DNA of 64,000 nucleotides from Amoebophrya sp. A120 (lineage: Eukaryota; Protista; Dinoflagellata): the NCBI GenBank assembly GCA_905178155.1, contig CAJINV010000004.1:6702933-6766932 (forward strand), in the 5' to 3' direction. Every line of letters starts with the position of its first letter. Within the stretch, counting starts at the first letter, position 1. Position numbers and translations under genes: made by a program. Below the pieces are notes generated by a model. It saw nothing but the letters and a program-made list of their open reading frames with translations, made no database searches and was not told the origin of the DNA. This document shows, in pieces, positions 4,684 through 59,510 of this stretch.

Positions 4684-7600
4684 ATGGCCACCCGTCCTCC
4701 CGAGGCAAAAGCAAAACCCCGGCACCCGCGCGCGCGCCCCCAGCCGCAGGTCGCCACGCCCCCGGCCGATGTTGAGCTGCGCGACAGCAAAGACAGCCTC
4801 GCTCGTCCCGACGCTCTGGGCGGTGCCTCCGGGCAACTACCGGCCGAACAGCAAGAGGAAAGCCTGCTGGAGGAACTCGAAGATGGCGTCGTCGGGTTTT
4901 TCAACCGGATGTTCGGCGCAGGAGTCGCGTCGCCCAGCGACGCCGCCAACGAAGACGCGTCGAACGCGATACAGAGCCCCACCACGTTCGTGGATGGCAA
5001 AACGGACGCGCGCAGCCCAGTCGGGGACAGGAGTCCAGCCGCGGCGAGTTCGAGGTCGGAGTCTGTTGGAAAAAAAGGACGTCGTAATCGGGGTGTTGCA
5101 GGAGAAGAAGAATTACAAGCAAAGTTTTTCACGGAGCAGGAGGGCCGCGAGCAAAGAACAGACGCTGAACAACAGCTTGTGGATCATAATCGGGAAGATG
5201 GGCCGCTGCTGATGTCCTCTCGACAACCTAGTTACAGCCCGGACAGGGAGCTGCAAGAAAACAATAGTTACGGATTCGTTGCTTCTGGCGGTACTTCTAC
5301 AGCTGTTCAACGAGGACGACGAGCAGGGGGAATAAAGGCCAACGCGCTGGTGCAACAAGGTCTTCTGAACGAGTCGTCCTCTTCTGCTGTGGAGCTAGAG
5401 CAGCACGACAGCGTTTCGGAAGATGTGGTCTCCAAGTCCGGGCAGGCGGGCCGGGGTCGTGCGCGGGACAAGGTGGACCAACCAAGGGGAAAGCTGTGGA
5501 CGCGGTCCAAGCTGCCCCAGCAGCGGGGTTACGACAATACGACGACGTCACAGTCACCGTTGATGTTCCCCGCAGCTCAACAGCGAGGACATCAGCAGGA
5601 GCTGCTCTACTCCGGGAAGCCGAAGCAACCCCAGCAGGTTCTTTTCCAGCGGTCCAAGGCTGCGCAGCTGGAGCGAATGCTGCGAGAGGCCAACAGTCTG
5701 ATCAGCTCCTCCGCGACTGGGGGTTCGGACCGCGAGAACCTGCGAGACTTGGCCTCGGTCCTGATGAGCAGTTACCACGAAGAAGACGAGCAGGAGGCGG
5801 ACCACGACGCAGACGACCGGACCGGCGCACGAGGACATCTTCTTCAACCGCACCAGAAATTTTGGTCTTCCTCCAACGAACGGACGAACGCGAAGACGAA
5901 AGCCAAGTTGGAATTGCTGAAGCTGAATCTCTATGAATCGCAAAAGTATCGTACTAGTGTAAATCGCAATACAAATTCGCTCAGCATGACAACGGGAATT
6001 TGTCATGCCGTTTTGCCTTGGGATGGATATTTGTATATGCATGTTTGCAATGACTGCGAGTGCGATACTTTTGCACAGGATAATCTCGAGGCCCGGGACC
6101 GGGCTTATGACACGCAATTCGAGAGTATGAGAGCGCACATCAACCCGCCGTTATTTGTCATGCAAAATCCGAAGTAGAAATCCAGTACAGTTGCAGCCCT
6201 GTAGCATTGTTGGCATGACAAATGCTGGAAGCCCAAAAAGCACTACAGTCGGCGCATAAGAAATTTGTCATGCACAGGCTCCACATGTGCTAGCGTTTAT
6301 ATTGCTGTTCAAGAGTCATGCACTCCAAAAGCGGGGGAAGTTGTGCACTCTCATAAAGAAGGCGATCGGCAATCTGAAGGAAGTACTGATGACCCAGGGC
6401 CAAATTTTCCAAGAAAGTTTGGACGCAGCCAAGGAGCAGCACAAACTGCGGGAGGAGGGGCTGGCGCAGGAGCTGCAGGTGAAAAGCGAGGAAACGGCGA
6501 AGTTGCAGCTCGAGCTGGAGCAGAAGGGGAGGCAGTTGGCCGATATCAAGAGCAAAAATGTCTGGGTCTGGAAAAATGCAACTTGTGATGCTGCATTTGG
6601 ATTCCAGAAAAATCTGTATTGCATGAGCAGCAAATGCAAAGGGAACGCGATTCTTGCTACCCGGAGAGGGCGTTTGTCATGCGGAATAGGCATCGAGATG
6701 CCCTCAAAACATCTGTGATGCTAGGGCATGCATCACCGACATCATGGCTCATGCAAAACGTGCATGACAAGTCTCAGAATCTTCCAGACCCGGACATATT
6801 TGCACTGCATAGCCGACTCGCAGGCGCAACACAAGGAACTGGAGCTGCGGTACGCCGCTATCAATTGCAAATATGTCTGGGTCTGGAAGGTGGAAACTTG
6901 TCATGGTAAATCTGAAGCATGCAGAAATCTGTGTTGCATGAGTGCCAAAAGCTGTCCACTTTTGAGAAAGTTGGAAGGGAGTTTCTCATGCAGGATAGGC
7001 ATGGCAGAGACCTCGCAGAGTCCGTCGTGCTACGTCCCGCATTCCAGACCTCATGGGTCAGGGAAAATCTGCATGACAAGTTTACACTTTTCCAGACCCA
7101 GACATTTTTGCACTTGATAGCCGCCCTGTGGAAGCAGTTCGAAAGTGCGCAGGATGTGTTGCTGGCGCAGACCGGCGGCCGGGTCGTTTATCAAGGGGAG
7201 AGAAAGACAGCCGATAAAGTTTCTTCGAGCAGGAGTCCGAAGAAAAAGAAGAAAAGTACCAACAAGAAGAGCGGCTACAGTAGTACAAGCAGCTCCAGTG
7301 GCCGCGACGAGTACAAAAAGCAGAAACGGACGAGTCCAGAAACTCAATCTGCCAAGAAGAAAAGCAGAAATAAGCGAAGAACGGCGGAACAGAGCAACGT
7401 GATCCGCGAGTATTTTCAGCGTTGGATTGACATCGTAGCGCACAAAGCAGCTACTTCGCGACGCCGGGGAGTCGGTGATGAAGAGCGGACGTCTACCATT
7501 GTTCCGCCTTCGCTAACCTCCTTCACAACCATCGGCACACCGCAGCAGCTGCGCCACACGACGACCCGCTACGATGAAAGCGATTCCGATTCCTCTTCCC

Positions 7601-9107
7601 TGGCCGCTTATCAATCGCAAATATCGTGTCTGCCTTTGGAAGATTGCAAGATTTGTGATGTAGATTTTCCATGACCCATGAGGTCTGGTATGGAGGACAG
7701 AGCATGACAGATTCTGCGACAGTCCTATCATGCCTATCCTGCATGAGAAACTTTCTCTGACATTCACATTCATCAAAAGTGGACAACTTATGATAATCAT
7801 GCAACACAGCTTTTTTCACAATCCGGACTTAGCATCACAAGTTGCATTCTTCCAGACCCAGACATATTTGCAATGCATACCGCCTTCGCAGGCTCGTTCC
7901 GCAACCCGAAGAACAGTACAACTTTCGAGCGGGACCAGGCGAAAGCTCGAATGCTTGCCGCGGAGGTATCAAATGCAAGTATGTCTGTGTCTGGAAGGAT
8001 GCAGAGGTTTGTGATGCAGCTTTGGCATGACCCAGAAGGGCTACCATGCACGCCCTAGCATCACAGGTTTTGAGAAGGTCAGTCTCTTGATGCGTAATCC
8101 GCATGACAACGCCCTTCTTTCGGTGGCCAGAAATGTGCAACTTTTGGCCTCCATGCATGACAGATTTTTGTGTGATGTGAAATGCGCATCACAAGGTCGC
8201 ATCTTTCCATACCCAGACATATTTGCAATGCATAGGAGGCCGCGCAAAGCAAATTGTTCAAAGGGCCTAGTTCGTCAGTGCGGGCGTCGGACGGAAGCAG
8301 GTACAGGAAGGACAACGGCGGAAGAAGTCGAAGCAGGGACAACTACGAGGGACAACGACTGGAGAAGATGACAGGAGGAGCACAACAAACAGGTTCTACT
8401 CGTCGTGAACAAGTAGAGGCTGCTGCGCGGGTGAGGAGTAGTACTACATCCCGAACTTCGTCTGTGAAGCAAATCGAGCGCGAACTGGAGAACGAGAAGC
8501 TCGGGATCGTCAGTGCGGCCAGTCGCGAACCAAAGTTGATATCAAGTGCAAAAATGTCCGGGTCTGGAAAAGTCGAACTTGTAATGCGTGTCTTGCGTTC
8601 CTGGAAAATCTGTGTTGCACGAGCAGCAAAAGAGAAGCTTTCTTTGTCATGCAAAAACGCAATTTGTAATTCGTCAGAAAGCGTCTCAAAAACTTGTCAT
8701 GCTTGGCTGCCATTGGAAGCGCTTCAATCATCCACATTTTGGCATCACAAGTTTCCAGACCCAGACATTTTTGCATTTCATAGCTGAAAGCCGCGGACAA
8801 AGTTGTGGAGAAAGGAAACTTTGTCTACTCGGCTTCTTCAAGGTTGGAGAATGCAGAGCGGGATCGAAGTAGAACTGACGACAAGGACCAGAATCATCAA
8901 AATTCCACTTCTAGTACCACGCAGCTAGATCGACTACGAGGACCACAGGCTAGTTCGGTACAACGAGATGGTGGCCGCACAATGGTGGTTTCGGTGCCCA
9001 CCCGATCTCCGTCCCCGAACGTGCGTGCGCAGGACCGAGAAAATGCGCGCAGCTTTTTGCAAGCCATGCGGACGACGTCCACGGAGAGGACTAGCGGACC
9101 GAGTTGA
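4684..9107 (+). CDS. Low-complexity/coiled-coil hypothetical protein interrupted by 7 introners
   Basis: One continuous frame to TGA 9105-9107 after removing elements at 5932, 6126, 6544, 6859, 7609, 7967 and 8540 plus one TSD each; coiled-coil stretch LKEVLMTQ...LELEQKGRQL; start codon uncertain. Confidence 0.7.
5932..6082. mobile_element. Introner, family A
   Basis: TAT...ATA; TSD atctc/atctc; in-frame L-N-L-E-A. Confidence 0.9.
6126..6355. mobile_element. Introner, family B (TATGAGAGTGCACAACTCCCCCTCCCCC TIR), degenerate
   Basis: TATGAGAG...CTCTCATA; TSD gagag/aagaa; removal restores frame into AIGNLKEV. Confidence 0.8.
6544..6811. mobile_element. Introner, family D (ATGTCTGGGTCTGGAA TIR)
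   Basis: TSD gccga/gccga; in-frame L-A-D-S-Q. Confidence 0.9.
6859..7119. mobile_element. Introner, family D
   Basis: TSD gccgc/gccgc; in-frame Y-A-A-L-W. Confidence 0.9.
7609..7879. mobile_element. Introner, family D
   Basis: TSD ccgct/ccgcc; in-frame L-A-A-F-A. Confidence 0.85.
7967..8234. mobile_element. Introner, family D
   Basis: TSD ggagg/ggagg; the only copy where sliding within the TSD can give GT...AG. Confidence 0.9.
8540..8782. mobile_element. Introner, family D
   Basis: TSD gttga/gctga; in-frame K-L-K-A-A. Confidence 0.85.
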
Positions 9108-10139: not shown

Positions 10140-13100
10140 ATGATGTTGATTCGCATTTTCGAAGAAGAGGATGACCTTCACACGGAGAGCCGCGCGCCTT
10201 CCCGCGTCGACGGCACTACTAGAGGTGAGCTGTCGTCGTGGTTCTCCGCTTGGAGCCAGGAAAAGAACCAAGAGGTGGACCTAAACAAGTCCAATAAACG
10301 GAGGCCCGTGGTAGACAACTCCGCCCCCGTGCAGGAACAACTCGTCGCGCCGCAACCGCGCGTCGTAGGGAAAGTCAAGACGTCGCACTCGCACACGTTC
10401 TTCACTGGAACCACAAGGGGCGAGAGTGAGGAAGCGGCGGCTGGCGATGCGAGAACGGATCGTCATGATGATCGTGACCACTTATTTTCCGCACATGTTG
10501 AGACAGCACGGCGGATTTTTTCCGGTAGTTCAACAAGCGACGAAAACAGTACTAGCGCTAAGACAGCGTCTGTTTATCACTATGGGTTGCGTTCCTGTGC
10601 ACGAGTACTACTTTCCCGGCAAGCGGTTCTCGTCGGGCTTTCTTTCGTATTTTTGGTGTTCTATGCGGTCCACGACTTCCGACATAGAATGTTCCCGGGG
10701 TCCTCTTCCCCCTCGACTTCATCCGGTTCTGCGCCTCTGTTGATAGAGCGCTCCGTTGGCGGGAATAAATACGGCCCTGGTCGAGGACCACGTCCTCGTG
10801 GGTCTTCACGTGCTCGCGGCCGGTCACGAACTTCCACGACGTCGAATAAGGTGTCGTTCTTCTCGAAATACGAACGGCTGTGCCAGAAACTGTGTCCGAA
10901 CCACGAGACGCTGGAGGCCGACATAAAAGCCCGCCGGCTGCCGAGGCAGAACGTCTTTCTCACGGGGCCCTGGTATCCAAACCTGCTGGACGGGCCGGTC
11001 CGGCAGTATTTGTTCCCGGAAACAGAATTTATAGCGTTCTTTGACCACGCGGCCGCCGACGAAAGTATCCGGCTGATCTCGGATTTTTTGGAAGAGCAGA
11101 AGGTGTTTCATGATCTTCGTGAGGACGATGATCATTTGTCGAGCGAAGTTCGTCTTCGTGAGAAAAACTCTACACTTAATATCCACCCGAACGAAGCTTC
11201 TACGACACCGGCCCTTAGTACGAGAATGAGCCCGAAGAGGCCGTGGACGCTTTCACGAGCTTACCAGGAGGTGAATCCGCGGGCCTTCCGAGCCGACATT
11301 TGGCGCATCGCGATTGTGTATTTTTGCGGCGGGCTTTACGTAGACGCCAAGGCCACCTGGCCGGAAACGAGCTTCACTGCGAAGGTGAAAGAGCAATCAC
11401 GTCGAGAGGCTTCTAAAGACCAAGGGCGAGGAGGCGCGCGGCCTGGTACTACTAGCCGCCGCCTGGCGGAACGTGACGTAGACGCTGTTGATCTCTGGCG
11501 GCTTGAGGGAGTTCAAAAGAGAAAGGACGCGGCTTCTTCCCCTCCGGCGCGAATCTTTGGCTCCATGGGGGCTCATATTAAGCAGCGGAACAAGAAAGTA
11601 GACGGGGGAGAAAAAGACGATCATGAAAGAACAGACGAGGAACGCGACAAAGACGAGGAAGATGTAGTGAAAATAAATGCCGACCCGTACGAGCAACAGT
11701 TGCGAGATTCAGAGGCGCGTCCAGGTACTAGTTTCTCGACGCCCACGTCTCATTTCTCTGCAAGTAGGGTGAAAAAGAAGCGCAAGCGGTTTAAGAGTGG
11801 GGGGAAGAAAGAGAAAAGCAAAAGCCGGCAGAGGAATGAACCGGTGGTCAAACAGGCGGGTAGTAAAATCGAAGAGCAGCGCGACCGGGGTGGAGTTGAC
11901 GAGGACCAAAGCGGGGAGGGGAACAAAGGTACAGCAGGTTCGACGCGTGCCTCTGAACTAGAAAGCGAATTGTCGAAGGTGAAGATGAACCTCTCGACGA
12001 TAAGTTCGGTCTTTGAGAAGCTGGCAACTCCAACTCCTCCGGGTCGTGGTCGTGCGAACAATACTAAGAACTACACCATGAGCGCAGGCGAGGTGCTTTT
12101 CTGTTTGGATCACGACGCGCTCGCCGGGGGCGGTTTGACTAACCGCCTGCTGGCCAGCTACCCCAGGAACCCGGCGTTACTCTACTTTCTGCGGCAGCAA
12201 ATTCAAAACAGCATGGATATGCGATACGACTTCGGCAGGGACGTCGCAGAGGTACACATTCCGCTTTTGTACCCAACCGGTCCGGGCCTCGTGACGAGTG
12301 TGGCTTTGCAAGAACCTTGTTTACAGAGCACCCTCGTCCCCCGGTGCGCCATGGCAAAGGGCGCCGAGCCGTTTCGGCGCTACCAGCCGGCGGCGGTAGT
12401 CCAAGAGGTATGTGGTGAAAAGTGTCCGGCGGAGTATTACGATGCTGTTTTTTCTCCGGAATATCATGACCGCTTCACGTCTCTCGCAAACGAAGCGCGG
12501 AAGAATCAACCAGACCTGTGCGACGAGGAACGAATGCTGCGAGATTTGAAGAACGCAACTACGTCCTCTTCCTTCTTTCGCGGGCCCTTCCGTTTGGCCA
12601 AGAAGCGTAGAAAAGAGGGAAAACGTAGTGTGGACAATCAAGAGAGCGCTGAGGAAACGACCACCACGCCTCGTGCTCCCCTTCCGCTGCTCCAACGATT
12701 TCTGGATGATTGGCGCGATGACCCGTGGTCCCCCCACAAAGTGGATCTGCGAACCGGCCTGCTGTTCTCGTGGGACAGACACTATGCATTGCAAATGTGT
12801 CTGTGTCGGGAAGGATGCGAATTTGTGATGCGCATTTCACAACACACACAAATCTCTCATGCAGAGGCAGCAAAGGATCAAGATGCGGATGTCCATTTCC
12901 TGTCACCACGGTGAAGGATTTGTCTTGCGGATTAGGCAATGCGGAAGCTTCTCGACATTTGTGATGCTTCTGCGGCTTCCTCGACATACATTCTGCGTAG
13001 TGCAAAAACAGCATGACAAAAATCCGCATTGTTCATGCCGACCCAGACATACTTGCATTTGATAGACACGTGCATGCAGCCATGCACAACAAGCAGAACC

Positions 13101-15113
13101 AAGACTCCGACTGCAGCAATTACGGAGAGATCTTCAGACACCATAGGGTCTATTGCAGCGAGCTGGAGGGACCGCAAGATCACTGCCGGCAAGCCTGCCT
13201 CGAAGCCGCACCCCTCCTCGGGCAGGAGCGAGACGAGAGCAAGTTGGTGCCAAGAACAACGAGGCTGAATAAAACGCTGTATCGACAGAAGTCCGTCAGT
13301 GAAAGGGCAAGGGCCGCGCTCGCAGAAAAAGAAATTCAGCACAGGATGGGAGTTTCGAAAGCGTACGCGACAAAAACTCTCGAACAGTTCGAGTTTGTCA
13401 TCAGCCCTGACGCCCGGGCGGACGACCCCGTAGCGGAGAAGCGGCGCTTGACTTTGGAGATGCCGGTGCTTCCCTACGTTGTGCAGGCGCAGCATTCGTA
13501 TTTCATCTCCGCCCTGAAACTGATTCTCGAGGACGAAGAGAACATCCAAGAGGGCAACGGTGCTACTCTTCTCCGCACGATTACAACGAAAAATGTGGAG
13601 CCTGCTCCACTCACGCCTACTTACCAGGATAATTCCTTTTTCCCTTATGGTGGGACGCATCTCGCTATGAGAGTACACAACCCCCCCTCCCCCTCCTTTG
13701 GTTTTATGCAAAGTTCCAAGTTATCCAGTCTGTTCCTCTTGGTACTGTTTGCATGACAAGTTCTGGTATCCCAAATAGAAGTAGAACTACACGCCAGTGT
13801 AAATTTGTCATGCAGAAGCAGAGCGAACCGAAACCGGAATTCTTGCTGATACTGAACCTGATGCTTGTCTGTTTGCCGTTTATGCTATACAAATGAGGGG
13901 GGGAGTTGTGCACTGTTATACTCGCCGCTGCCAGGTATGGGAGCCTGGTTGGTTACACCGGTAGCCGCTACAATTTTGTGGATTTTGATACGGACTATCT
14001 TGTCTGGGTGAAGAAGGAAGAGGGCGAACCGCAGGGGCGCGCCACGAGAAGGTTTTTCAAAGCTCTCGTGGAGGACTACTTTGGGAACGACCTTGCAAAA
14101 CCCGGGCCAGGCGACCCCGCGCTGGGGCACTGGGCCTGGCGCGCAGGTGAAGTCGGTCGGTCCTGTATTCTCGTAGACCTTGACGGTGCCGCTGGCGTTC
14201 CGGATCTGCCCTATGCCTATTGGCCGTCCGAAAACGTGGCCGCCATCCGGGATTCGGAGCTGCAGCGCGGGGACATCTTGCCCGAACCGGCTGGCTGGAT
14301 CGGTGAAAAATTCAGGAGGCACGACTCACACGGCTTCCGGTTGTACGCAGACGTGTGCGTGATTGAGTATGACGAAAAGGTGGGCAAGGCCTGTCTCGAC
14401 GCGAACCAAGAAAACTTGAGCGTTCGCTTCTGGTTAGATAACGAAACGAACTGCATCCGGGACGAGATCTTGCCCAAGCTTTTGCCGCCGAAGTTCGCGT
14501 CCGCCGCCCGGCGGGCGGACAAATCATCCTGGCAAATGCTGAAAGTCGATGGACACACGTTGCAAACGCCTGGCGAGGTGCTCTGGGCCACGACGACCAA
14601 GTTGGCGAAAAAGGACCGGTACAACAGGTCTCCTCCTCATCCTGGCGCGGGGCGCGAGGCTGCTTCATCAGTGTTTTCCTCCTCACCTACTTCGTCCAAA
14701 ATTACAGCGCAGGACGCTGTAATTAAAAGACCCGATCCAACAAGTCGTTTGGTATCTAACTATTGCATGCCTCCTGCAGGTGTGATCGTGAGTGGCGAAT
14801 GGTGGAACACGACGCGCGAGGCGCCGCTCAGCGACCAAGAGTGCGAAGCGATTCTGAAACACATCGCACAAGTTTCTTCTCCGCTCGCCCCTTTCTGTCG
14901 TTCGGGCATTGATGTTGATTGTAAGTATGTTGCGGAGGAGCGACGGGGGGGCTTCGAGGTGGGCAGGGTCCGTCTACGAAACAGAGAAAAAAAACAGTCC
15001 CAGCTTCCCTACCATCCCACGATACCGCGGGCGCACCACGACCCGAAACTAGCACGAGAACATCTGCAAGGCTTGCACCGAGCCAGCATTGCGGGCGCGA
15101 AAAGGGTGGTCGC
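10140..15113 (+). CDS. Type II membrane GT32/OCH1-like glycosyltransferase fused to a C-terminal LicD/fukutin-like nucleotidyltransferase domain (runs into N gap)
   Basis: TM segment AVLVGLSFVFLVFYAV; GT32 motifs AFRADIWRIAIVYFCGGLYVDAK, LTNRLLASYPRNP and TGPGLVT; after removing introners 12783-13064 and 13666-13920 the frame continues into YGGTHLAAARYG...VDFDTDYLV (LicD-like GTLLGAxR...DxDxD). Confidence 0.7.
12783..13064. mobile_element. Introner, family D
   Basis: TSD gacac/gacac; removal gives WDRHVHAAMH, colinear with FDKGVHQAMH of the intronless paralog. Confidence 0.92.
13666..13920. mobile_element. Introner, family B
   Basis: TSD ctcgc/ctcgc; splits the GGTHL|AAARYG motif. Confidence 0.9.
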
Positions 15114-15245: not shown

Positions 15246-16947
15246 ACTCTCGAACAGTTCGAGTTTGTCATCAGCCCTGACGCCCGGGCGGACGACCCCG
15301 TAGCGGAGAAGCGGCGCTTGACTTTGGAGATGCCGGTGCTTCCCTACGTTGTGCAGGCGCAGCATTCGTATTTCATCTCCGCCCTGAAACTGATTCTCGA
15401 GGACGAAGAGAACATCCAAGAGGGCAACGATGCTACTCTTCTCCGCACGATTACAACGAAAAATGTGGAGCCTGCTCCACTCACGCCTACTTACCAGGAT
15501 AATTCCTTTTTCCCTTATGGTGGGACGCATCTCGCTATGAGAGTGCACAAGAACTCCCCCTCCCCCTCCTTTGCATGACAAGTTCTGGTAGCCCAAATAG
15601 AACTACATTCCAGTGTTGGTGTAAATTTGTCGTGCAGAACCGGAATTCTTGCTGATCTTGAACCTGATGCTTGTCTTGTTGCCGTTTATGCTATACTTAC
15701 AAATGAGGGGGGGGGAGTTGTGCACTGTTATACTCGCCGCTGCCAGGTATGGGAGCCTGGCTGGTTACACCGGAAGCCGGTACAACTTTGTGAATTTTGA
15801 CACGGACTATCTTGTCTGGGTGAAGAAAGAAAGGGCAGAACCGCAGGGGCGCGCCACGAGAAGGTTTTTCAAAGCTCTCGTGGAGGACTACTTTGGGCAC
15901 GACCTTGCAAAACCCGGGCCAGGCGACCCAGCGCTGGGGCACTGGACCTGGCGCGGGGGTCGGTCGTGTATTCTCGTAGACCTTGATAGCGCCGCTGGCG
16001 TTCCGGATCTGCCCTATGCTTACTGGCCGTCCGAAAACGTGGCCGCCATCCGAGCTTCGGAGCTGAAGCGCGGGGACATCTTGCCCTGGCCGCACGGCTG
16101 GATCGGTGAAAAATTCAGGAGGCACGACTCACACGGCTTCCGGTTGTACGCAGACGTGTGCGTGATTGAGTATGACGAAAAGGTGGGCAAGGCCTGTCTC
16201 GACGCGAACACAAAAGACTTGAGCGTTCGCTTCTGGTTAGATAACAAAACCAACTGCATCCGGGACGAGGTCTTGCCTAAGCTTTTGCCGCCGAAGTTCG
16301 CGTCCGCCGCCCGGCTGGCGGACAAATCAGCCTGGCAAATGCTGAAAGCCGATGGACACACGTTGCAAACGCCTGGCGAGGTGCTCTGGGCCACGACGAC
16401 CAAGTTGGCACGAAAGGACAAGTACAACAGGTCTCCTCCCCATCCTGGCGCGGGGCGCGAGGCTGCTTCGTCAGTGTTTTCCTCTTCTTCACCTTCGTCC
16501 AATATTAACGCGCAGGACGATATTAAAACACCCAATCCAACAAGTCGTTTGGTATCTAACTATTGCATGCCTCCTGCAGGTGTGATCGTGAGTGGCGAAT
16601 GGTGGAACACGACGCGCGAGGCGCCGCTCGGCGACCAAGAGTGCGAAGCGATTCTGGAACACATCGCTCAAGTTTCTTCTCCGCTCGCCCCTTTCTGTCG
16701 TTCGGGCATTGATGTTGATTGTAAGTATGTTGCGGGGGAGCGACGGGGGGGCTTCGAGGTGGGCAGGGTCCGTCTACGAAACAGAGAAAAAAAACAGTCC
16801 CAGCTTCCCTACCATCCCACGATACCGCGGGCGCACCACGACCCGAAACTAGCACGAGAACATCTGCAAGGCTTGCACCGAGCCAGCATTGCGGGCGCGA
16901 AAAGGGTGGTCGCAAAGCGTCCGCTGATGAAACATGAGGGAAACTAG
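15246..16947 (+). CDS. Second copy of the LicD-like C-terminal region (tandem paralog or alternate haplotype), ends at TAG
   Basis: Duplicates 13376-15113 with near-identical ends and a diverged middle; carries the same introner at 15536-15732. Confidence 0.6.
15536..15732. mobile_element. Introner, family B (internally deleted homolog of 13666-13920)
   Basis: TSD ctcgc/ctcgc; 197 bp versus 255 bp. Confidence 0.88.
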
Positions 16948-48104: not shown

Positions 48105-49960
48105 TTAGACAAGGAAAATCGCAGAAGTTCATCAAAAATCGAACACCTCCCTGCCCGGGGCTCCCGGGGAATATAGTTCATTTGCGCGGGCCCCAACCAT
48201 TTCGCATTTCCCCCCTTCGGAGCCCGCCCCGCCATGCGCTGCCGCTGGCATGTGTGTCGTTTTTAGTTCTCACGCCTGCGCATGTACGAGCCGAAGCGAT
48301 CCCAGCACTTGCTCTACAGTCTTGCTCCGATTCAAAGGCGCGCGTCCATGAGAAAACAGCTCCAAGGGGTTCGAAGGTGGTGCGCGTTTACAATGAGTCG
48401 CATTGTTTCGAAAACGTTTCCGGCCCCCATTTCTTGTCCTGTCGCAGCGCGGAGCCCTTCCAGTTTGCCACCTGAATCGCTCGCGCAACCCGAATAATGT
48501 AGAGCAGCACCGCCACATTCACCAGCAGAACCACCCAAAGCGCCAGAAACAAACCAGCAGCCGCCCAGCCCGTTTCCCCGCCCCGGCCCGGCTGTCGGAA
48601 GCGCCGGGCAAAGGCGTCACCGAAAGCGCCGCGGCCCTGTCGGAAATCGCCGGCCGGGGCGGCCGCGATACCAGTGGCGTGGCCCGATGCGGTGCGTTTT
48701 GCATGTGCGGCCACCGTCCGATGGCCGGAGGCCCCCCGAACGTCTCGCCCCAGTTCTGGAAAGCTTCTGGCAGATTCAAAAGCGCGCGGCCCTGAGCCCG
48801 CCTTCGCTGCGACCGGAAGCGTTGCCTGGCGGCCGGGGCGGCGGCCGGTCCGAAGGGAGCAGCCTGGCGCGCCCCGGCGTGGCCCCGGGGCCGCCGGCGT
48901 TCTCTTTGGCCAAAAGCGAAAAGAGCTGCTTCCGCGGCCGCCGGGGGCCCCGGCCGGGCAGCCAAAGGGGCCCCCTTTTTCACAAAAAAAAACACCCCCA
49001 AAAAGCACCCCCCTTGGCAAGCCTTTCCTCCACCTGAAACTGGGGAATTCCGCGCCCAAAAAAGTACCCCCCCAAAGCACCCCCCTGAGGGGCCCCCCGG
49101 CTTCGCCTTCGGACAGGAGTTCCTCCCGGTTTTCCCTTCTCGCCTTTTTTGTTTTGCTGCCCCCATGCCCGCTATATTCCCAGGGCAAGCATGTCCCAAG
49201 ACACCCACGGCCGCACGCTTTTGGAAAAAAGAACGGCGGGCCGCCTCGTCTTCGCAGCCAATGCGGGCACAAGGCCGCGCGCTTTTGCATCTCCCAAAAA
49301 CTTTCCAGAACAGGGGCGAGGCGTTCGGGGTGTCTTCGGCTACCGGACGGAGGCCGCATGCGCAAAACGCATCGCGCCGGCCCGCGCCACTGGTATCGCG
49401 GCCGGCCTTGCCGGCGAATTCCGACAGGGGTGCGCGGACTTCGGGAGCGCATGTGGCCCGGCGCTTCCGGCAACCGGGCCGGGGCGGGGACACGGGCTGG
49501 GGGGCTGCCCGTTTGCTCCTGCGGCTCTGGGTGGTTCTGCTGGTGGATGTAATGTCGCTGCTCTACATTCTTCGGGCTGCTCAAAAGATTCAGGTGGCAA
49601 AGTGGAAGCGTTCTGCGCTGCGACAGGACAAAAAATGGGGCCCCGGAACGTTTTCGGAACAATGGCACCGATTTTAAACGCGCGCCACCTTCGAACGCCT
49701 TCGGGCTGTTCTTTCCTAAGCGCCTACTTTTGAACCGGAGCAGGGCTGCAGAGCAAATGTCGGAGGCGCTTCGGCTCGTACATGCGCAGGCGTGAGAACT
49801 AAAAACGACACACATGCCAGCGGCAGCGCATGGCGGGGCGGGCTCCGCAGGGGGGAAATGCGAAATGGTTGGGGCCCGCGCAAATCAACTACATTCCCCG
49901 GGAGCCCCGGGCAGGGGGGTGTTCGATTTTTGATGAACTTCTGCGATTTTCCTTGTCTAA
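48105..49960. mobile_element. Foldback element with ~720-bp inverted arms
   Basis: TTAGACAAGGAAAATCGCAGAAG...CTTCTGCGATTTTCCTTGTCTAA; arms ~48105-48830 and ~49235-49960; 5-bp TSD cgaca. Confidence 0.9.
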
Positions 49961-50086: not shown

Positions 50087-52918
50087 ATGATGATGGCAGG
50101 TGTCGCGGACGAGCGGGAAGATAATAGTCTCCATGCAAACCAGCAACAGGAGATCACCGAGAAGACGAAGCTACTCCCTTCTCCGACGGGCGAAACCACG
50201 CGAAAGCCTGCGTGGATTGACAAGGAGAAATACGTTACCGCTTCGCAGGGTGTAGTCCTGCAGGCAGCACAGAAGATCGCAACACGGAATCATGTTGCAC
50301 CTACAACAAATTACAACGACGCAGATGGAGATGGAGATTTGGGCGACCACGATACGGCTTTTCAGCAGAAGCTGTACGCACCCTACCTCATCACGTCGAA
50401 ATTCAAAATCTGGTGCGTTTGCGCAGTCTGGATGTATTACGGGATGGTGCTGTCGACTTACGTTGCGTTCACCATTCCACTAGAGGCAATGCGGATGGCA
50501 CCGGCGTGGCAGAGCTCCTTTGTTGTGCTGGAGCGGGTGATCTACGGACTGATGCACTTAACCGCGCCGTTTTTCGGAAAGTATTGATTTCGATTTTTTT
50601 TTGTTTAATATTCCGATGCGATATTATTTCAATTTCATGCCATGTGCCTCGTCTCTGCAAGACGCGAAACACATCCAATTTGCACAACAACGAACGATCT
50701 GTCTCAACACCAGGCTTTCAGACGAGACCCGGCACCCGTGGGGCAAGCGCCGACCTCTGCTCGTCGCGGGTGCGTTTCTGCTCCTGGCCTCGCACACGAT
50801 GCTGTTTTTTGCCTCCGACAGGTTACAGATGTACACGTATCTCTTCGCCCTCGCCGGCGCCATGGTGGCCAAGAACCTTATCATTGCCTGCACCTCGGGG
50901 TATTTGGCCGATGTGGTGCCGAAGGAGCTGTCTTCCACCGTGTCTGGGATTACCACACTGCAGTGCGCCACGGGGTGTCTGATTGGTATCCTGTGCAAAA
51001 GTATCGTATTCGTACTACTTGCAAATATGCATGACAAATTTTTTTCCTAAGGAAAACAGCATTACAAATTCCACTTTCCTTCTTGCCAAAATTTGTATAT
51101 GCAATTTATACTAGTACGACTACGACACTTTTGCAATGCATAATTGGGTTCGGGCTGCAATATCTCCTCGCCTCCACCGCGGTCAAGTTTACATACGTCT
51201 ACGTAACCGGGTTCTACATGCTTGGCGCCCTGCTTTTCTTCTTCGTGGCGTCGGAGCCGCCGAGCGACGTGCAGAGCCTGCAGCGGTTGCGACAGGAATT
51301 TGAGAAGGAAAACACCCACACTGGTGCTAGAAGTACGACTACCCAGGAGATCGGGATTCCTGCACCATCAACCCCTATTACTCCCTCGACCACGGCGCAA
51401 CATTCGGCGACCGATACGGAGTCCGTTGCGAGCAGCCACTTAGTACAGAATGAAGCGGCGGACGACTACTACACGAACCGGCAGCCAAGATACAACAGCA
51501 CCAACCTCCACGCCAGTCTGGCGGACCGCTCAACGCGGGCACCGTCTTTATTATCCTCGCGCGGGCCGACGTTGCAGCGCAGCGGGTACAGCAGCGACGG
51601 GCAAACCAGCGGCATGACAGACGATACGGAAGATTCTGATGCTTATATGAACAACCGCGCGGAAGACATCATTGACACACACATGCGGTACACGCACTAC
51701 AACAGTGTCGCGGTGGTTGCAAATTCGACGAATGGGGCCAGTGGCGACAACTATGATAACCCTCGCGACCACCCAGCAGTAGACCAACGGAGAGCACAAC
51801 AGGAACAGACCCGTATAGCACGAGAGCATCACTCGGTTGGAGAAGGGCAGCCACTCGATGAACACTATCAGAAGTTGATGACGCAGCACCAGGATCAGCA
51901 CAACAATTTGGATTCGAACGTCGACAAAACAAAGGGGGAGCACGGCGAAAATAAAAATGCTTCTTGGTCTTCCAATACCACCACCTGCTGCACCAGTCTC
52001 GCCGCTGCTTCGCAGTATATGTCGTCCTTTTGGAGCACTTTCTGGCACGCGCTTACCATTTCACCGGACTACCAGTATCTGGTGCTGGTTCGGATTTTCT
52101 TTTACGCCGGCTGCAGTTCCATGAGCATGTTTCTGTTCTACCTGCGGGACGCACTCCATGTCCCTACTAAGGCAGAGGGGATTCAAAAACTCTCGTCCCT
52201 CGCCATGATTAGCCAGTGTGCGATCATTGTTGTCGCGGTGGGTGCCACGCTGTTGACAAGTCGGGTGTACGCACAGAAGATGCTAATTTTCCTCGGACTG
52301 GGGGCCATGATGCTGACATTTCTGACGTTGTCTTTCTTACCCATGTTGACTCCGGAATACGCGAACTTGCACAACAAGAACGTCTATGTGGAACAGGACA
52401 GCAGTCCTACATCAAGTTCGCTGCTAACGGAATCCACTTTGTCTATGATCGTACACGTGGGCGGCTTCGGGTACGGCCTGGGCACGGGGTGCATGGCGGT
52501 GGGGGACATGGGGCTCGCTCTGAAGCTTGTTCCGGCCGGGGTAGGAAACGGAGCGGCCATGAGCATTTTCGGCCCGAGCATCACCTACGGGTTTGTCCTC
52601 GGCAGCATAATGATCGGGACGGTCTTGCAGTATTTTAAAATACCTGGTGGCGCGGAGGACAAGGAACACTCCGCCGTGGAGCTGGCTACGGCGGCAAGCC
52701 GGAAGCAACAACCGCTCGACCACATGGCCTCGACCACAGCGCCGCCGACTTCCAAGGCAGATTTCAATGGAGTTTTGTGGGAGCCGGGCTACACCGAGGG
52801 CGGGCACCAAGTGATAGCGATGTGCTCCCTGGTTCTGTGTGGGATTTCCGCCGCGCTGCTGTACACCGTGGACACGCGTCGGGCGCTCGCGAAGACCGCG
52901 AATGGGGAGCAGGAATAG
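50087..52918 (+). CDS. MFS transporter, SLC45/sucrose-transporter(GPH)-like, paralog A
   Basis: GKLSDETRHPWGKRRPL motif, multiple TM helices, long central loop; GT-AG intron 50581-50713; one introner. Confidence 0.8.
50987..51142. mobile_element. Introner, family A
   Basis: TSD attgg/attgg; site empty in paralog B. Confidence 0.92.
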
Positions 52919-54220: not shown

Positions 54221-57200
54221 ATGATGACAGACGTTGTGGCGGATGACGTTGACGACCGGCAAAACAAAAACATGATGAACAATATGAACCGAGACAACCA
54301 CGAAGAAGCCACCGAGAAAACACGGCTCCTCTCTAGTGCAGGAGTTCATCCCGGGGCAGTAGAAGAGACGAGAAAACCGGTTTGGCTTGACAAAGACAAG
54401 TACATCACGAATAACTCCACACCCCGGATGGAAGTAGATTCACATGAACAACTGTTACCAGCGAGTAAACAGCACTTGTCAACAAAGCAAGGCCTGGACC
54501 TGGACGGAGGTGCAGGAGCAGCAGGCGCATTATACGATGATGCCGACGCTTGGGGAGACCACATATGAGAGTGCACAGCTCCCCCTCCCCCTCATTTGTA
54601 TTGCATCAACAGCAATACAAGCGTCAGCAAGAATACAGGTTTTGCATGACAAGTTTGGTGTTGGACAGGATTGTAGTGCTACTTGGGCTGCCAGAACTTG
54701 TCATGCTAAAAGGGCCAAGAGGCAAGGCGTAAATTAGGTATTTTGCATGACAAATGAGGGGGAGGGGGAGTTGTGCACTCTCATACCACAACACTGCCTT
54801 TCAGAAGAAGCTGTTCGCGCCCTACCTTGTCACCTCTAAATGGAAAATATGCAATGCAAAAGCATCGTACTAGTATAAATTGCATGACAAATTAGCCCAG
54901 CATTACAAATTTAATTTGTAATGCTGATTTACCTTGAAAAAGAGATTTGTAATGCAGAAATGCAATTACTACGAGAGAGTACGATACTTTTGCACAGGAT
55001 AGAAAATCTGGTGCCTCAGTTCCTGCTGGGTGTACTACGGGATGGTGTTATCGACCTATGTTGCGTTTACCATCCCGTTAGAAGCGATGCGGATGGCGCC
55101 GGGGTGGCAAAGCTCCTTTGTCGTGCTCGAGCGCATGATCTACGGACTGACGCACTTGACCGCGCCTTTTTTCGGAAAGTACTATTTCGATGCTTTTTTA
55201 TATCGTTTGCGTTTCACAACGATCACGATGAGACATAAATGTCAATCTGTTTTCATTGCAGATTTTTGCCAGACCGCTTTTAATATTCGTTTTCGTTACT
55301 TACGAACATGAGGAGTTTTAGATTTACTCGCAACAGGACTTCATGGCTGGCCAGCATGACTCCAGGTGTAAATTTGTGTTGCATGCTTTACATCATTAAA
55401 TCAACAGGATTTCCGACGAAACCCGGCACCCGTGGGGCAAGCGTCGACCGCTGCTGGCCGGAGGTGTGTTTCTGCTTCTATCCTCCCACACGATGCTATT
55501 CTTTGCCTCCGATCAGCTCGCGATGTACCTCTACCTGATCGCCCTCAGCGGCGCCATGGTGGCGAAAAACCTTGTCATTGCCTGCACGTCCGGGTATTTA
55601 GCCGATGTCGTGCCGAAGGAGCTGTCTTCCACCGTGTCTGGCATTACCACCATCCAGTGCGCCACAGGGTGTCTGATCGGGTTCGGGACGCAATATATGC
55701 AATGCAAAAGTATCTTACTAGTATAAATCGCATGACAAATTCCCTCAGCATGAAAAATTTATTTTGTGATGCGGATTTACTTAGCTTCAGAAAAAAATTT
55801 GTAATGCATGAGTGCAATTACTACGAATACGATACTTTTGCACAGGATACAATATCTACTCGCCTCCAGCGCGGTGAAGTTCACGTACGTCTATGTGACG
55901 GGCGTCTACGTTATGACAGTGCACAACTCGACGTCTCCCTCCCCCTCATTTGTGATGCAAAGTCCCCAAATGATTTGTTGCCTTGTGGCACTGTTTGCAT
56001 GACAAATTTCGGAAGCCTAAACAGTACCACAGTCGGCCTGTGAACTTGTCATGCACAGGCTCCAAGTGTGTTGGTGTTTGTATTGCTGCTCATGCCATGC
56101 AAATGGGGGGGGGGTTGTGCACTCTCATATACGTGCTCGCGACGCTACTTTTCTTCCTCGTCGCCTCGGAGCCCCCGAGCGACGCGGAGAGTCTGCAGCG
56201 GTTTCGACAAGAGTTCGAGCGGGAGGAGCGAGCACGGGCGGGGAATCAGCAGGGTATGTCGGCTATGCGTTGCAAAAGTACTGCACTTCTACCATAAATT
56301 GCATTACAAACTAGCTCAGCATGACAAATGCGATTTGTGATGCTGTTTTGGCTTAGGAAGAAGATTTGTCATGCGTACCTGCAAGCAGTACGAGTGCGAT
56401 CCAACTTTTGCAATGTATATCGGCCGCTTCACTCACACCCCCGACCACCGCTCAGCAATCATCCGCGACCGATGCCGCGACTGACACGGAGTCCGTCGCG
56501 ACCAGCCAGCTGTACTCCGCCCGGGTATCGAAGAAAAATAAAGTGTGTAAGTGTAATTTCGTAGGAAGAACAGCAGCACAAATTGTGCAATGCAGGGAAA
56601 ACCTGTCATGCGCAGCTAGTACGTGGAAACACGTATGAAAGTTGCCGATGACGCAAATCCAGCATGACAAGCGTATACAGTTTTGCATTTCCTGCATCAC
56701 AGACTTACACTTACGCAGTGTTTTTCTTGCATACCGGGACAGCGCGGATTATTACACGCACCGGCAGCCGAGGTATCTGCAGAACGCGAGTCTCGCGGAT
56801 CGCTCCACGCGGGCGCCCTCCTCGCGCGGTGGAGGTCGGGGGCCCAGTGGGGCGACGCAGCAGGGGTACAGCAGCGACGGGCAAACCAGTATCGTAAGAA
56901 AAAATCCCCCCTCCCCATGTCGAAAAGGTCCGTCTAAGGAAATTTGTAATGCTCATTTGTGACCACAAATCGTCTCTGTCTTGCAGCAGGAACGAAACTA
57001 CACGACAGGCTCCGCCGCATTCTGCAGGCGGTCGGTGATGCTGTTGGCCCTACGGACTAGACGTTTGCCATGCTTAGCGCCTAGCAGAAAACCTCTCTAC
57101 TCGGGCTTAGTATAGGCCCGCAGTTCTCTCCAGCAAGACGAATCTGATTTGTGTACACAAATCCAGCATCAGAAACTTCGTTTTGATATGGGGAGAGGGC

Positions 57201-59510
57201 ACTTTTCCTTTTGATAACCAGCGTGACCACGGACACGGATTCGGATTTTTACAACAACGCGGAGGACATCATCGACACGCACATGCGGTATACGCATTAC
57301 AACAGTGTCGCAGTAGGAACAGCCGGTAGTGGAACGACGTCGACGCCACGGCCAACAACCTCAGGAGCTTCGCCGAACAACTATGTGTCGAACACGATCT
57401 CTACTTCCAACAACGAGCGCAACCTGGAGCTGCACTCAGCCGAGGTAGAAAATGATGATTCCTCTTTTTTCGCCTCCTGCTCCGCAGGCCTTGCCGCCGC
57501 GTCAGGCGCCATGTCGTCCTTCTTTGGTACTTTCTGGCACGCGCTTACCATCTCACCGGACTACCAGTATTTGGTTTTCGTGCGAATTTTCTTCTATGCC
57601 GGATGCAGTTCCATGAGCATGTTCCTTTTTTACCTCCGAGATGCGCTTCATGTACCTACCAAGGCGGAGGGGATTCAACAACTTTCGTCTCTTGCCATGA
57701 TCAGCCAGTGTGCGATCATTGTCGTCGCACTGGGTGCGACGTTGCTGACCAGTAGGGTGTACGCGCAGAAGGTGCTGGTGGGCGTCGGGCTGGGGGCCAT
57801 GTATCCTGAGTAAAAACGTACCCACACCAGAGTCAGGATGGGGATTTTGCAACACAAACCTAGGAGTTTTGTGAGTCACGCATGACAAGTTGCACTATTC
57901 AGTGTAGTGCAGGTTGGCAAGTGCAGCCGCGTCACAGATTCATCTGCTCATCCTGTTCACAGCATCACAAATCCCAAAACACGAGTGGAAATGGCTTTCA
58001 TGGGGATGCGCATTACAAATGTTCCTGTCATTGCAAATCTGCATGACAACTCTGGTGTGGGGACGTTTTTACTCAGGATACCATGGTCCTCGTGTTTTCG
58101 ACTCTGTGTCTTTTGCCCATGCTGACCCCAGAGTACGCGAGCTTCCACTACGGGGAAAACAACCCCGCGAAGAGCTTGATCCTGACGGAGTATCCTAAGC
58201 AAAAACGTCCTCACCCCATAGTCAAGTTGGTAAATCTGCAACACAATATATCTCCAAGTTTTGGGAGATGTGCATGACAAGTCTCCATCTACAGTTTAGT
58301 GGGGGTTAGCAAGGGAAGCCGCATGAAAAGACCATTTGCTCATCCTGTTCACAGCATTACAAATGCCAAAACACGATTGGAAATGCCTCTGATGTAGATG
58401 CGCATTACAAATGTTCCTGTCATTGCGCATTTGCATGACAACGCTGGGGTGGGGACGTTTTTGCACAGGATTCGGAGACCGGCGTGTCCATTCTGGTACA
58501 CATTGGCGGATTCGGTTACGGCCTGGGCGTCGGGTTCATGGGAGTCGGTGACATGGTATGACAGTGCACAACTCCCCCTCCCCCTCATTTGTCCTGCACA
58601 ATACCCAACTCACCCTTTGCCCCTTGGCACTGTTTGCATGACAAGTTCTGGTAGCTCAAAGAGCACCATACTCCCGTGCAAATTTGTCATGCAAAACCGG
58701 CACGCTTGTTGATGCTTGTATTGCGGTTCATGCAATACAAATGAGGGGGAGGGGGAGTTGTGCACTCTCATACATGGGACTCGCTTTCAAGCTGGTTCCG
58801 GCCGGGGTGGGGAACGGTGCCGCCATGAGCATTTTCGGCCCCAGCATCACCTACGGCTTTGTCCTCGGCAGCATCGTCATCGGGACGGCCCTGCAGCACT
58901 TCAAGGTGCCGGGGGGGTCGGAAGACAAGCACTCCGAAGCGGAGATGGCGGAGGCGGCAAGCCGGCAGCAAGCGCTCGACCAGGCGCAGGCGGCGTCAGG
59001 AGCTACAGCGGGGGCCGCGCCCAAGGCGGATTTTAACGGGGTTTTGTGGGAGCCGGGCTACACGGAAGGCGGGCACCAACTGATAGCGCTGTGCTCGGTG
59101 ATTATGTGTGGGATTGCCGCCGCGCTCCTGTACAAAGTGGACACGCTATCAAAAGAAAAAATCCCCCTTCCCCATATCAAAACGAGGTTTCTGATGCAGG
59201 ATTTGCGTACACAAATCAGATTTGTCTTGCTGGAGAGGAATGCAGGCCCATACTAAGCCTAAGTAGAGAGGTTTTGGCCTAGGCGTCTAGCATGAGAAAC
59301 GTCCTTGCTGCAGGGGCTCACCAGCATCACAAACCGCCTGCAAAACACTGTGGAGCTCGTGGAGTTGCCTTCTTGCAAAACAGACGCGATTTGTGGTCAC
59401 AAATCAGCAACACAAATTTAAACGTACCTTGTCAATATGGGAAGGGGGGTTTTTCCTCGCGATACACGCGCCGGGCGCTGGCCAGGACCGCGAATGGAGA
59501 ACAGGAGTAG
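54221..59510 (+). CDS. MFS transporter, SLC45/sucrose-transporter-like, paralog B (11 introners)
   Basis: Colinear with paralog A after removing 11 elements and GT-AG intron 55179-55407; identical C-terminus TANGEQE*. Confidence 0.82.
54564..54785. mobile_element. Introner, family B
   Basis: TSD ccaca/ccaca; ~36-bp near-perfect TIR. Confidence 0.93.
54848..55001. mobile_element. Introner, family A
   Basis: TSD gaaaa/gaaaa. Confidence 0.92.
55696..55849. mobile_element. Introner, family A
   Basis: TSD caata/caata. Confidence 0.92.
55912..56129. mobile_element. Introner, family B
   Basis: TSD tacgt/tacgt. Confidence 0.92.
56264..56419. mobile_element. Introner, family A variant
   Basis: TSD tcggc/tcggc. 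Confidence 0.88.
56526..56733. mobile_element. Introner, family G (AAGAAAAA...GTAAGTGTAA TIR)
   Basis: TSD ccggg/ccggg. Confidence 0.88.
56890..57216. mobile_element. Introner, family E (opposite orientation to 27531 and 59147)
   Basis: TSD accag/accag. Confidence 0.92.
57802..58080. mobile_element. Introner, family C
   Basis: TSD ccatg/ccatg. Confidence 0.93.
58191..58472. mobile_element. Introner, family C (right end ATT)
   Basis: TSD cggag/cggag. Confidence 0.9.
58557..58772. mobile_element. Introner, family B
   Basis: TSD catgg/catgg. Confidence 0.93.
59147..59464. mobile_element. Introner, family E
   Basis: TSD cacgc/cacgc; removal gives VDTRRALARTANGEQE. Confidence 0.93.

What the first reader, a model, noticed from the sequence alone, without database searches (positions are those of the whole stretch)
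5932..59464. Unrelated introner families all carry the same internal motif GCATNACA(A) / (T)TGTNATGC, several times and on both strands
Families A-H have different TIRs, lengths and internal sequences. Every family nevertheless contains several copies of GCAT(G/T/C)ACAA or its reverse complement, spaced a few tens of bp apart (e.g. 23281-23450, 41620-41800, 54640-54755, 57880-58050); a few degenerate copies such as 25770 and 41999 have only imperfect matches. The motif is rare in flanking exons. Most ends also share TAT[CG]N4G-N-AAAA. Convergence on one motif suggests a common trans-acting factor (transposase subterminal site, host DNA-binding protein, or splicing marker) that licenses a sequence for removal.
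Basis: partly seen in the sequence, partly recalled or inferred. Interest (0 to 1): 0.8.

Follow-up and report, generated by a model that had tools for sequence, protein, structure and literature searches.

The report
Shared DNA code in jumping introns
The many families of jumping introns in this marine parasite genome carry the same 11-letter word at set spacings and in either direction, and ordinary introns keep it too, so it is likely the landing site of one DNA-binding protein that helps these introns spread and may help mark them for removal.

Summary
Confirmed and extended. The window holds 48 introners (TAT…AAAA inverted ends, 5-bp target duplication) matching the published Amoebophrya A120 type. 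GCATNACAA occurs 121 times in 11.0 kb of elements versus 4 in 52.8 kb outside. The full word is GCATBACAART. It is far more conserved than its neighbours (0.89–0.98 vs 0.54–0.77). In 428 elements from the window and a second public assembly, 416 have an exact 8-mer. Same-direction pairs 30–34 bp apart recur in 13 of 16 groups. RNA-like contigs remove elements precisely whichever strand carries the word, so it is not a strand-specific RNA signal. The families are not fully unrelated: they share end signature and TSD length, and two share internal sequence. Young copies lose single sites almost neutrally, yet the word is the top enriched word in predicted ordinary GT-AG introns lacking inverted ends (21 vs 0.8 for permutations) and is absent from window intergenic DNA. 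Two elements with similar ends but no word lie outside exons. Best reading: one double-stranded-DNA-binding host or domesticated factor, used in mobilisation and kept in introns (0.5). Rival: a plain transposase site (0.3). I found no report of the motif.

The parts
3388..3523 (.).
5932..6082 (.). Family B introner; 1 forward, 1 reverse
6126..6355 (.). Family C introner; 1 forward, 2 reverse; TSD 3/5
6544..6811 (.). Family A introner; 1 forward, 3 reverse
6859..7119 (.). Family A introner; 1 forward
7609..7879 (.). Family A introner; 2 forward
7967..8234 (.). Family A introner; 4 forward, 1 reverse
8540..8782 (.). Family A introner; 1 forward, 3 reverse
12783..13064 (.). Family A introner; 1 forward, 2 reverse
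13666..13920 (.). Family C introner; 1 forward, 1 reverse
15536..15732 (.). Family C introner, same insertion site as 13666 in a duplicated gene segment; 1 forward
22779..22994 (.). Family C introner; 2 forward, 1 reverse
23030..23170 (.). Family B introner; 2 forward, 1 reverse
23243..23496 (.). Family s1 introner; 2 forward, 2 reverse
23557..23778 (+). Predicted GT-AG intron with one exact 8-mer (23601-23608, minus strand), no inverted ends
25232..25502 (.). Family A introner; 1 forward, 3 reverse
25770..25932 (.). Singleton introner; no exact copy, degenerate sites only
25979..26261 (.). Family A-like introner; 3 forward, 1 reverse
26532..26539 (+). Exact 8-mer in a predicted GT-AG intron (boundaries uncertain)
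26654..26933 (.). Family D introner; 4 forward
26959..27211 (.). Family A introner; 2 forward, 1 reverse
27297..27480 (.). Family B introner; 2 forward, 1 reverse
27531..27850 (.). Family E introner; 3 forward
27942..28220 (.). Family D introner; 4 forward
28861..29121 (.). Family A introner; 1 forward, 4 reverse
29414..29563 (.). Family B introner; 1 forward, 2 reverse
30291..30570 (.). Family D introner; 1 forward
33287..33547 (.). Family A introner; 1 forward, 2 reverse; skipped in RNA-like contigs (266 = 261+5)
33589..33868 (.). Family D introner; 4 forward only; skipped in RNA-like contigs (285)
34466..34608 (+). GT-AG intron skipped in RNA-like contigs; one exact motif (minus strand, 34531-34539); family-B-like remains by eye
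34783..34965 (+). GT-AG intron skipped in RNA-like contigs; one exact motif (minus strand, 34801-34809)
37221..37505 (.). Family D introner in reverse orientation; 3 reverse only; skipped in RNA-like contigs (290)
37739..37888 (.). Family B introner; 2 forward, 2 reverse; skipped (155)
40357..40576 (.). Family C introner; 1 forward, 1 reverse; last base altered; skipped (225)
40934..41083 (.). Family B introner; 2 forward, 1 reverse; removal inferred from contig arithmetic
41534..41839 (.). Family s3 introner; 4 forward, 1 reverse; removal inferred from contig arithmetic
41999..42209 (.). Family s4/s5 introner; no exact copy, three degenerate sites; removal inferred from contig arithmetic
42527..42677 (.). 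Family B introner; 1 reverse; removal inferred from contig arithmetic
43462..43744 (.). Family D introner in reverse orientation; 5 reverse
43828..43983 (.). Family B introner; 1 forward, 1 reverse
50987..51142 (.). Family B introner; 2 forward; site empty in the paralogue
54564..54785 (.). Family C introner; 2 forward, 1 reverse
54848..55001 (.). Family B introner; 2 forward, 2 reverse
55696..55849 (.). Family B introner; 1 forward, 2 reverse; skipped (159)
55912..56129 (.). Family C introner; 1 forward, 2 reverse; skipped (223)
56264..56419 (.). Family B introner; 2 forward, 2 reverse; skipped (161)
56526..56733 (.). Family s4/s5 introner; 2 forward, 1 reverse; bridged by an RNA-like contig
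56890..57216 (.). Family E introner; 1 reverse; skipped (332)
57802..58080 (.). Family D introner; 4 forward only; skipped (284)
58191..58472 (.). Family D introner; 4 forward only; last base altered; skipped (287)
58557..58772 (.). Family C introner; 1 forward, 1 reverse; skipped (221)
59147..59464 (.). Family E introner; 1 forward; skipped (323)
48105..49960 (.). Contrast case: 1856-bp foldback element, exact 5-bp TSD, TTAG-N4-G-N-AAAA ends, no motif, apparently non-coding location

Best explanation
GCATBACAART is likely the binding site of one sequence-specific double-stranded-DNA-binding protein, probably host-encoded or domesticated, that all these introner families carry as a spaced array and that ordinary introns of the same genome also keep. 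Shown: the elements are short TIR elements with 5-bp target duplications, removed precisely from RNA-like contigs; the word is conserved, works in either orientation and recurs at 30-34 bp spacing; it is enriched in predicted GT-AG introns that lack inverted ends. Inferred: the full array is selected mainly when an element is copied (a cofactor that positions or bends the ends for an integrase-like transposase), because single sites decay almost neutrally after insertion. Also inferred: one or two sites are then kept for a host, intron-related role. That role may be marking the stretch for splicing, but this step is untested; the pairing of the inverted ends in RNA is the likelier guide for the cut position.
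For: (1) Profile of a protein site: 0.87-0.96 identity at the fixed positions, 0.50 at the middle base, 0.47-0.74 in the flanks. (2) Geometry: 26 of 39 adjacent gaps in 10 window groups are 30-34 or 47-50 bp (best two windows in 3000 nulls: mean 15.4, max 23); 30-34 bp same-direction pairs recur in 5 of 6 families absent from the window (p=0.0002). First outward-facing sites sit about 35, 45 or 55 bp from the end (R=0.73 at period 10, n=14; R=0.86, n=8). (3) Strand symmetry: family D is removed with only forward copies on the RNA (33589, 57802, 58191) or only reverse copies (37221); orientation to the gene is 10:10 for D and unbiased in the five largest families. (4) Selection between copies: as neighbours get more distant, interior private changes rise from 3.3% to 14.5% but motif changes only from 2.5% to 4.4%; TSD mismatch is 6.2% per site over two copies. 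(5) Host retention: top de novo gapped word in 56 predicted GT-AG introns, 21 hits vs mean 0.82 for 420 permutations, 0 in 9,678 bp of window intergenic DNA; 13 of 55 introns have an exact copy with no detectable element homology vs at most 12% in simulated neutral decay (p=0.012), and 6 of 55 have two or more vs at most 2% (p=0.0008); middle base G in 17 of 20 vs 53% in non-B elements (p=0.003). (6) The single element of 428 with no site (L140:568-1088) carries a sister word CGATAACAR and lies in a predicted GT-AG intron.
Against: No binding protein or transposase was found. The canonical introns are mostly predictions from my own gene model (4 of 5 RNA-shown window introns exact, many false calls in repeats). 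Two of them show element remains by eye, so they may be relics whose ends were deleted; the decay simulation overstates detection power (test elements were in the profiles; extinct families absent) and had only 60 sequences per level; against 7% (all decayed copies at 20% divergence) 6 of 55 is not significant (p=0.19). Long predicted intergenic segments of the second assembly are also enriched (31 vs 6.1), though several of those hits lie in missed introns by eye. Elements with no exact copy are not depleted (9 observed vs 5.0 expected). The 47-50 bp spacing did not replicate in held-out families (2 gaps, p=0.16). The offset classes were drawn after I had seen the held-out values, and the two ends of a family are not independent. 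Shared ancestry can explain part of the geometry.
Confidence: 0.5

Rival explanations
1. The word is an ordinary subterminal binding site of one element-encoded transposase (or a small clade) that moves all these MITE-like families; copies in GT-AG introns are neutral relics of older insertions.
For: Common end signature and 5-bp TSD; C-D homology beyond the motif; near-neutral decay after insertion, higher in copies with a mismatched TSD (5.4% vs 3.3%, p=0.007); three long elements (622-815 bp) keep exact copies only within about 200 bp of an end; L140 has a sister word that repeats its own inner TIR, as in Emigrant/Lemi1; 28 of 56 predicted introns start GTAT, as G plus an old TAT end would.
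Against: Motif-bearing GT-AG introns lack the end signature (mean 1.1 of 6 in 10 introns vs 5.35 in elements), lack inverted repeats and hold more intact, G-biased copies than neutral decay gives. The word does not resemble the TIR ends. Inner TIRs differ between families while the word does not. Farhat et al. found no transposase in A120 (PMC7789003, section 16).
Confidence: 0.3
2. The word is read in the pre-mRNA as a splicing signal (by an RNA-binding protein or a small RNA).
For: It marks nearly every spliced element and is enriched in introns; U1 snRNA was not detected in these genomes (PMC7789003 passages). One small family leans to one orientation (8:0; at least 2 of the 4 uncalled copies look opposite).
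Against: Elements with only forward or only reverse copies are both removed precisely; among 252 oriented elements 35 have only forward, 47 only reverse; intron copies 12 forward, 20 reverse; 41999 has no exact copy and is removed.
Confidence: 0.08
3. The word has no function; it is an ancestral internal repeat inherited by all families.
For: Some families are homologous beyond the motif.
Against: It is conserved far above neighbouring positions in the large families, flips orientation at equivalent slots (C vs D), and most family pairs share nothing else detectable.
Confidence: 0.03

Closest known systems
Amoebophrya A120 introner elements (Farhat et al. 2021, PMC7789003)
   Same: Repeated non-canonical introns with inverted ends starting TAT, seven variable bases, then AAA; short direct repeats at the borders; many families; hairpin potential.
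   Different: The passages, section 16 and supplement text I searched mention no internal motif; they give 3-5 nt repeats and rule out general transposase mobilisation. Here the TSD is uniformly 5 bp and a shared spaced internal word is present. Figures were not visible to me.
A120 introner family 38 (Gozashti et al. 2025, PMC12130899)
   Same: Annotated '5-bp TSD, TA/TA termini', TIR DNA element, the same end type as here.
   Different: About 808 bp with LTR-integrase-like homology; my 622-815 bp elements gave no Pfam hit.
Emigrant MITE / Lemi1 transposase subterminal repeats (PMC1636448); similar sites in CACTA, hAT, Sleeping Beauty as cited there
   Same: Repeated internal binding motifs in both orientations whose arrangement matters.
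   Different: Those motifs repeat part of the element's own TIR and are family-specific; this word is unlike the TIR ends, is shared by families with different inner TIRs, and is kept in host introns.
Ginger1/Ginger2 DNA transposons (PMC2836005)
   Same: TIRs of tens of bp; the Tdd members make 5-bp TSDs; integrase-like enzyme is the proposed mover for family 38.
   Different: Ginger ends are TGTNR and TSDs mostly 4 bp and sequence-specific; ends here are TAT[CG] with unspecific 5-bp TSDs.
Host cofactor sites in transposition, e.g. IHF for Mu/Tn10, HMGB1 for Sleeping Beauty and RAG (recalled, no call)
   Same: A host DNA-bending protein acting at a helically phased distance from the cut end.
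   Different: Not known to be kept in host introns; the likeness of ACAAAT to HMG-box sites is recalled and untested.

Membership tests
Amoebophrya A120-type introner | Inverted ends TAT + 7 nt + AAA | tested here: met
   66 of 96 ends match exactly; positions 1-3 are TAT in 94, 94, 96 of 96
Amoebophrya A120-type introner | Direct repeat at the exon/intron border | tested here: met
   39 of 48 exact 5-bp TSD; empty sites align without gaps in the paralogue at most of 12 sites
Amoebophrya A120-type introner | Removed from RNA at non-GT-AG borders | tested here: met
   18 of the 23 elements in the two stretches laid are skipped (13 listed joints, 1 contig bridge, 4 by arithmetic; 5 not displayed) in runs guessed to be RNA; the DNA-like run shows none of the 8 joints; GT-AG can be placed for 1 of 48
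Amoebophrya A120-type introner | Repeated in the genome | tested here: met
   Families of 3-13 in the window; summed depth over elements far above the 40x single-copy level in run X1
MITE (non-autonomous TIR DNA transposon) | Short, TIRs, TSD, no coding capacity | tested here: met
   136-327 bp in the window
MITE (non-autonomous TIR DNA transposon) | Cognate autonomous element or transposase | tested here: inconclusive
   No Pfam hit in 6 ORFs from long elements; no whole genome was available
Ginger transposons | TGTNR termini | tested here: not met
   Ends are TAT[CG]
Ginger transposons | Gypsy-integrase-like transposase | not testable with these tools
   No autonomous copy in hand
Transposase subterminal binding site (Emigrant type) | Motif repeats part of the TIR | tested here: not met
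   Motif score of 28 consensus ends not above column-shuffled null; met only for the sister word of L140
Transposase subterminal binding site (Emigrant type) | Bound by the transposase | not testable with these tools
   Needs binding assay
Strand-specific RNA splicing element | One orientation on the transcript | tested here: not met

The most novel reading that the evidence does not exclude
This parasite defines introns on DNA: a protein bound to GCATBACAART arrays marks a stretch for co-transcriptional removal in place of U1-type splice-site reading, and transposons become harmless introns only if they carry the mark. That would explain why exon-resident elements all carry it, why elements with similar ends but no mark sit outside exons, and why old GT-AG introns keep it.
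Probability: 0.2. Interest if true: 0.95.

Novelty: new variant of a known kind. Interest (0 to 1): 0.72.

Why it matters
How Amoebophrya removes tens of thousands of introns without fixed splice sites or a detected U1 snRNA, and what moves its introners when no transposase was found, are both stated as open in the genome paper. A short, sharply defined word with spacing rules gives a direct handle: one pull-down can name the protein and separate a transposase from a host factor. If the site also serves host introns, it links the spread of introners to the machinery that tolerates them.

Tried and rejected
No whole genome was held. Triple-motif scan of viral contigs: 63 stretches, nearly all tandem or coding repeats, none an element of this type on inspection. 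Three non-JACKZZ metagenome hits (L063, L084, L088) were left out of all counts. Raw RNA run X10 laid 0 reads: no test. No overlap between window unique DNA and the second assembly's loci, so no orthologous insertions. TIR end as a degenerate motif: rejected. A 16.5-bp lattice fitted used a null that breaks relatedness; I rely on the family-level test instead. Orientation bias of the 110-bp family: 8:0, one of 13 tests, weakened by the uncalled copies. First gene model was poor and replaced. Rfam: no match in the window. Pfam: no hit in long-element ORFs; only the DEAD-box gene at 36182 matched. ORF-based coding fraction of the window is inflated by GC-rich repeats, so exon preference rests. 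Literature searches gave no report of the motif; one search listed 20 of 304 unrelated papers. Earlier-findings look-ups gave nothing relevant.


Full report
Setting. The window is gene-dense eukaryotic DNA with genes on the + strand. Two motif-blind searches for inverted ends and flanking repeats gave 48 elements of 136-327 bp. Of repeat lengths 2-9 only 5 bp fits: 39 of 48 exact, 8 with one mismatch, 1 with two. The ends read TAT[CG]N4GNAAAA, matching the signature given for Amoebophrya A120 introners (PMC7789003, passages), so the organism is inferred to be that or a close strain. In runs guessed to be RNA, 18 of the 23 elements in the two stretches laid are skipped by exactly their length plus 5 (13 listed joints, 1 bridge, 4 by contig arithmetic; the tables were cut and 5 were not displayed); the flat 40x run shows none of the 8 joints. 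A GT-AG placement is possible for 1 of 48. The elements themselves are therefore known.

The observation. GCATNACAA occurs 121 times inside and 4 times outside the elements, 145-fold per base; shuffles give 3.6 for the 8-mer against 139. Within families the fixed positions are 0.89-0.98 identical against 0.54-0.77 for other interior positions; the middle base is free but almost never A. A metagenome scan with an end-plus-motif pattern returned 147 loci, 144 of them used; the 76 or so listed by name are contigs JACKZZ01 of one public assembly, and the rest were not listed by name. They gave 380 more elements, 326 with a match to a window family at 70-97% identity, so they replicate loci, not necessarily species. 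Over 428 elements the word is GCATBACAART; 416 have an exact 8-mer and 427 a profile site. 140 of the 380 were selected by the motif pattern and were left out of the decay and zero-class tests.

Are the families unrelated? Partly. With sites masked, only C-D survives correction over 936 pairs (p about 0.03); s4 and s5 join one family with more data. Other pairs give small or no excess. All share end signature and TSD length, so they are best seen as one superfamily with different inner ends and interiors.

Geometry. Using one slot list per group, 26 of 39 adjacent gaps are 30-34 or 47-50 bp, beyond all 3000 nulls even when the null picks its best two windows; 8 of 10 groups have a same-direction pair 30-34 bp apart. 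In 6 families absent from the window the 30-34 bp pair recurs in 5 (p=0.0002) but the 47-50 bp gap does not (p=0.16). First outward-facing sites lie near 35, 45 or 55 bp from the end in both sets; ends of one family are not independent and the classes were set after seeing the data. About three helical turns between sites and one-turn steps from the end point to protein on double-stranded DNA (inference).

Strand. Family D has all exact copies in one direction and is removed in both orientations. Orientation to the gene is unbiased in the large families; 35 of 252 oriented elements put only the forward word on the RNA and 47 only the reverse. The inverted ends pair in predicted RNA folds (z -8.1 and -7.3) without needing the word in family D.

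When is it selected? In 190 elements with close neighbours, private changes hit 3.7% of motif positions and 8.5% of interior positions. In the tightest bin the figures are 2.5% and 3.3% (p=0.10), in the loosest 4.4% and 14.5%. TSD mismatch, which accrues only after insertion, is 6.2% per site over two copies. Copies with a mismatched TSD have more motif changes (5.4% vs 3.3%). So single sites decay at about the neutral rate once inserted, and the array is held on the lineages that get copied. Elements with no exact copy are not depleted (9 vs 5.0). Redundancy of 3-6 sites could hide a need for at least one.

Outside the elements. Residual hits fall mostly in apparent GT-AG introns. A gene model recovered 4 of 5 RNA-shown window introns exactly. 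In 56 filtered introns the word is the top de novo gapped 8-mer, 21 hits vs 0.82 for permutations; predicted exons show no excess (9 vs 12.4) and window intergenic DNA none in 9,678 bp. One intron was a duplicate mis-call and one hit is the acceptor itself; after removing them 15 of 55 introns have an internal exact copy, 13 without detectable element homology, 6 with two or more. They lack end signature and inverted repeats; 7 of 16 site pairs keep 16, 32 or 48 bp spacing (p=0.026); the middle base is mostly G. Simulated neutral decay gives at most 12% and 2%, though it overstates detection. Two introns show element remains by eye, so descent from old introners with selective retention of the word is the simplest reading. 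Long predicted intergenic segments in the second assembly are also enriched fivefold, partly through missed introns.

Contrast cases. Of 413 elements with readable flanks, all have an open frame across the empty site and only L140:568-1088 has AT-rich flanks, against 9% of random positions. It has TAT ends and a 5-bp TSD but eight spaced copies of CGATAACAR instead, and lies in a predicted GT-AG intron. Window 48105-49960 has a 5-bp TSD, TTAG-type ends, no motif and no Pfam-matching ORF. Two cases are a lead, not proof; a different transposase with different targeting explains them too.

Verdict. The word is real and functional, read on DNA, selected during copying, and probably kept by the host in introns. 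I put 0.5 on a shared host or domesticated binder, 0.3 on a plain transposase site, 0.08 on an RNA signal. The licence-to-splice version is a subset of the first, at about 0.2. Papers seen: PMC7789003 (abstract, passages, section 16, text search of its one supplement), PMC12130899 (passages, supplement search of 12 of 14 files, 40 of 58 A120 rows), PMC1636448 (abstract, section 14), PMC11282704, PMC12005148 and PMC2836005 (passages). None of what I saw, nor searches, reports the motif; closed journals and figures were not searchable.

Noticed in passing
L140:568-1088: 521-bp foldback element with introner-type ends and 5-bp TSD carrying a sister word CGATAACAR eight times in both directions (gaps 36-37 and 55-58 bp), inside a predicted GT-AG intron.
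   Followed up: partly
window 48105-49960: 1856-bp element with about 600-bp inverted arms, exact 5-bp TSD and TTA start, which resembles the A25-type end described in PMC7789003; no motif.
   Followed up: partly
window 31129-33119: About 2-kb element with 75-bp inverted ends inside a long apparent GT-AG intron; holds a GC-rich tandem array and seven motif-like GCA(G/A)CACA(A/G)AT sites at 31343-31512.
   Followed up: partly
window 21483-22213 and 44058-44790: Two copies of a 730-bp repeat without the motif; possibly an LTR-like or other element, ends not resolved.
   Followed up: no
L075:1170-1791, L076:4081-4895, L136:2631-3369: Long elements with s1-type ends that have captured unrelated interior DNA; exact motif copies only near the ends, in L075 and L136 at one end only; no Pfam hit.
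   Followed up: partly
window 50090-52918 and 54220-59510: Paralogous membrane-protein genes with 1 and 11 introners at different sites, giving empty-site controls.
   Followed up: yes
window 13370-16945: Tandem duplication around an N gap with the same introner insertion in both copies; the second copy has a deletion and a changed motif. May be an assembly artefact.
   Followed up: no
window and L063-L209: Exon pieces between neighbouring introners peak at 40-80 bp and are almost never under 20 bp.
   Followed up: no
predicted GT-AG introns: Donors are mostly GTAT (28 of 56) or GTAC (14 of 56) rather than GTAA/GTGA.
   Followed up: no
L014, L028, L043, L052, L053: Viral-collection contigs with non-tandem repeats of a TTTGTGATGC-type word, perhaps iterons; no introner ends found.
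   Followed up: no
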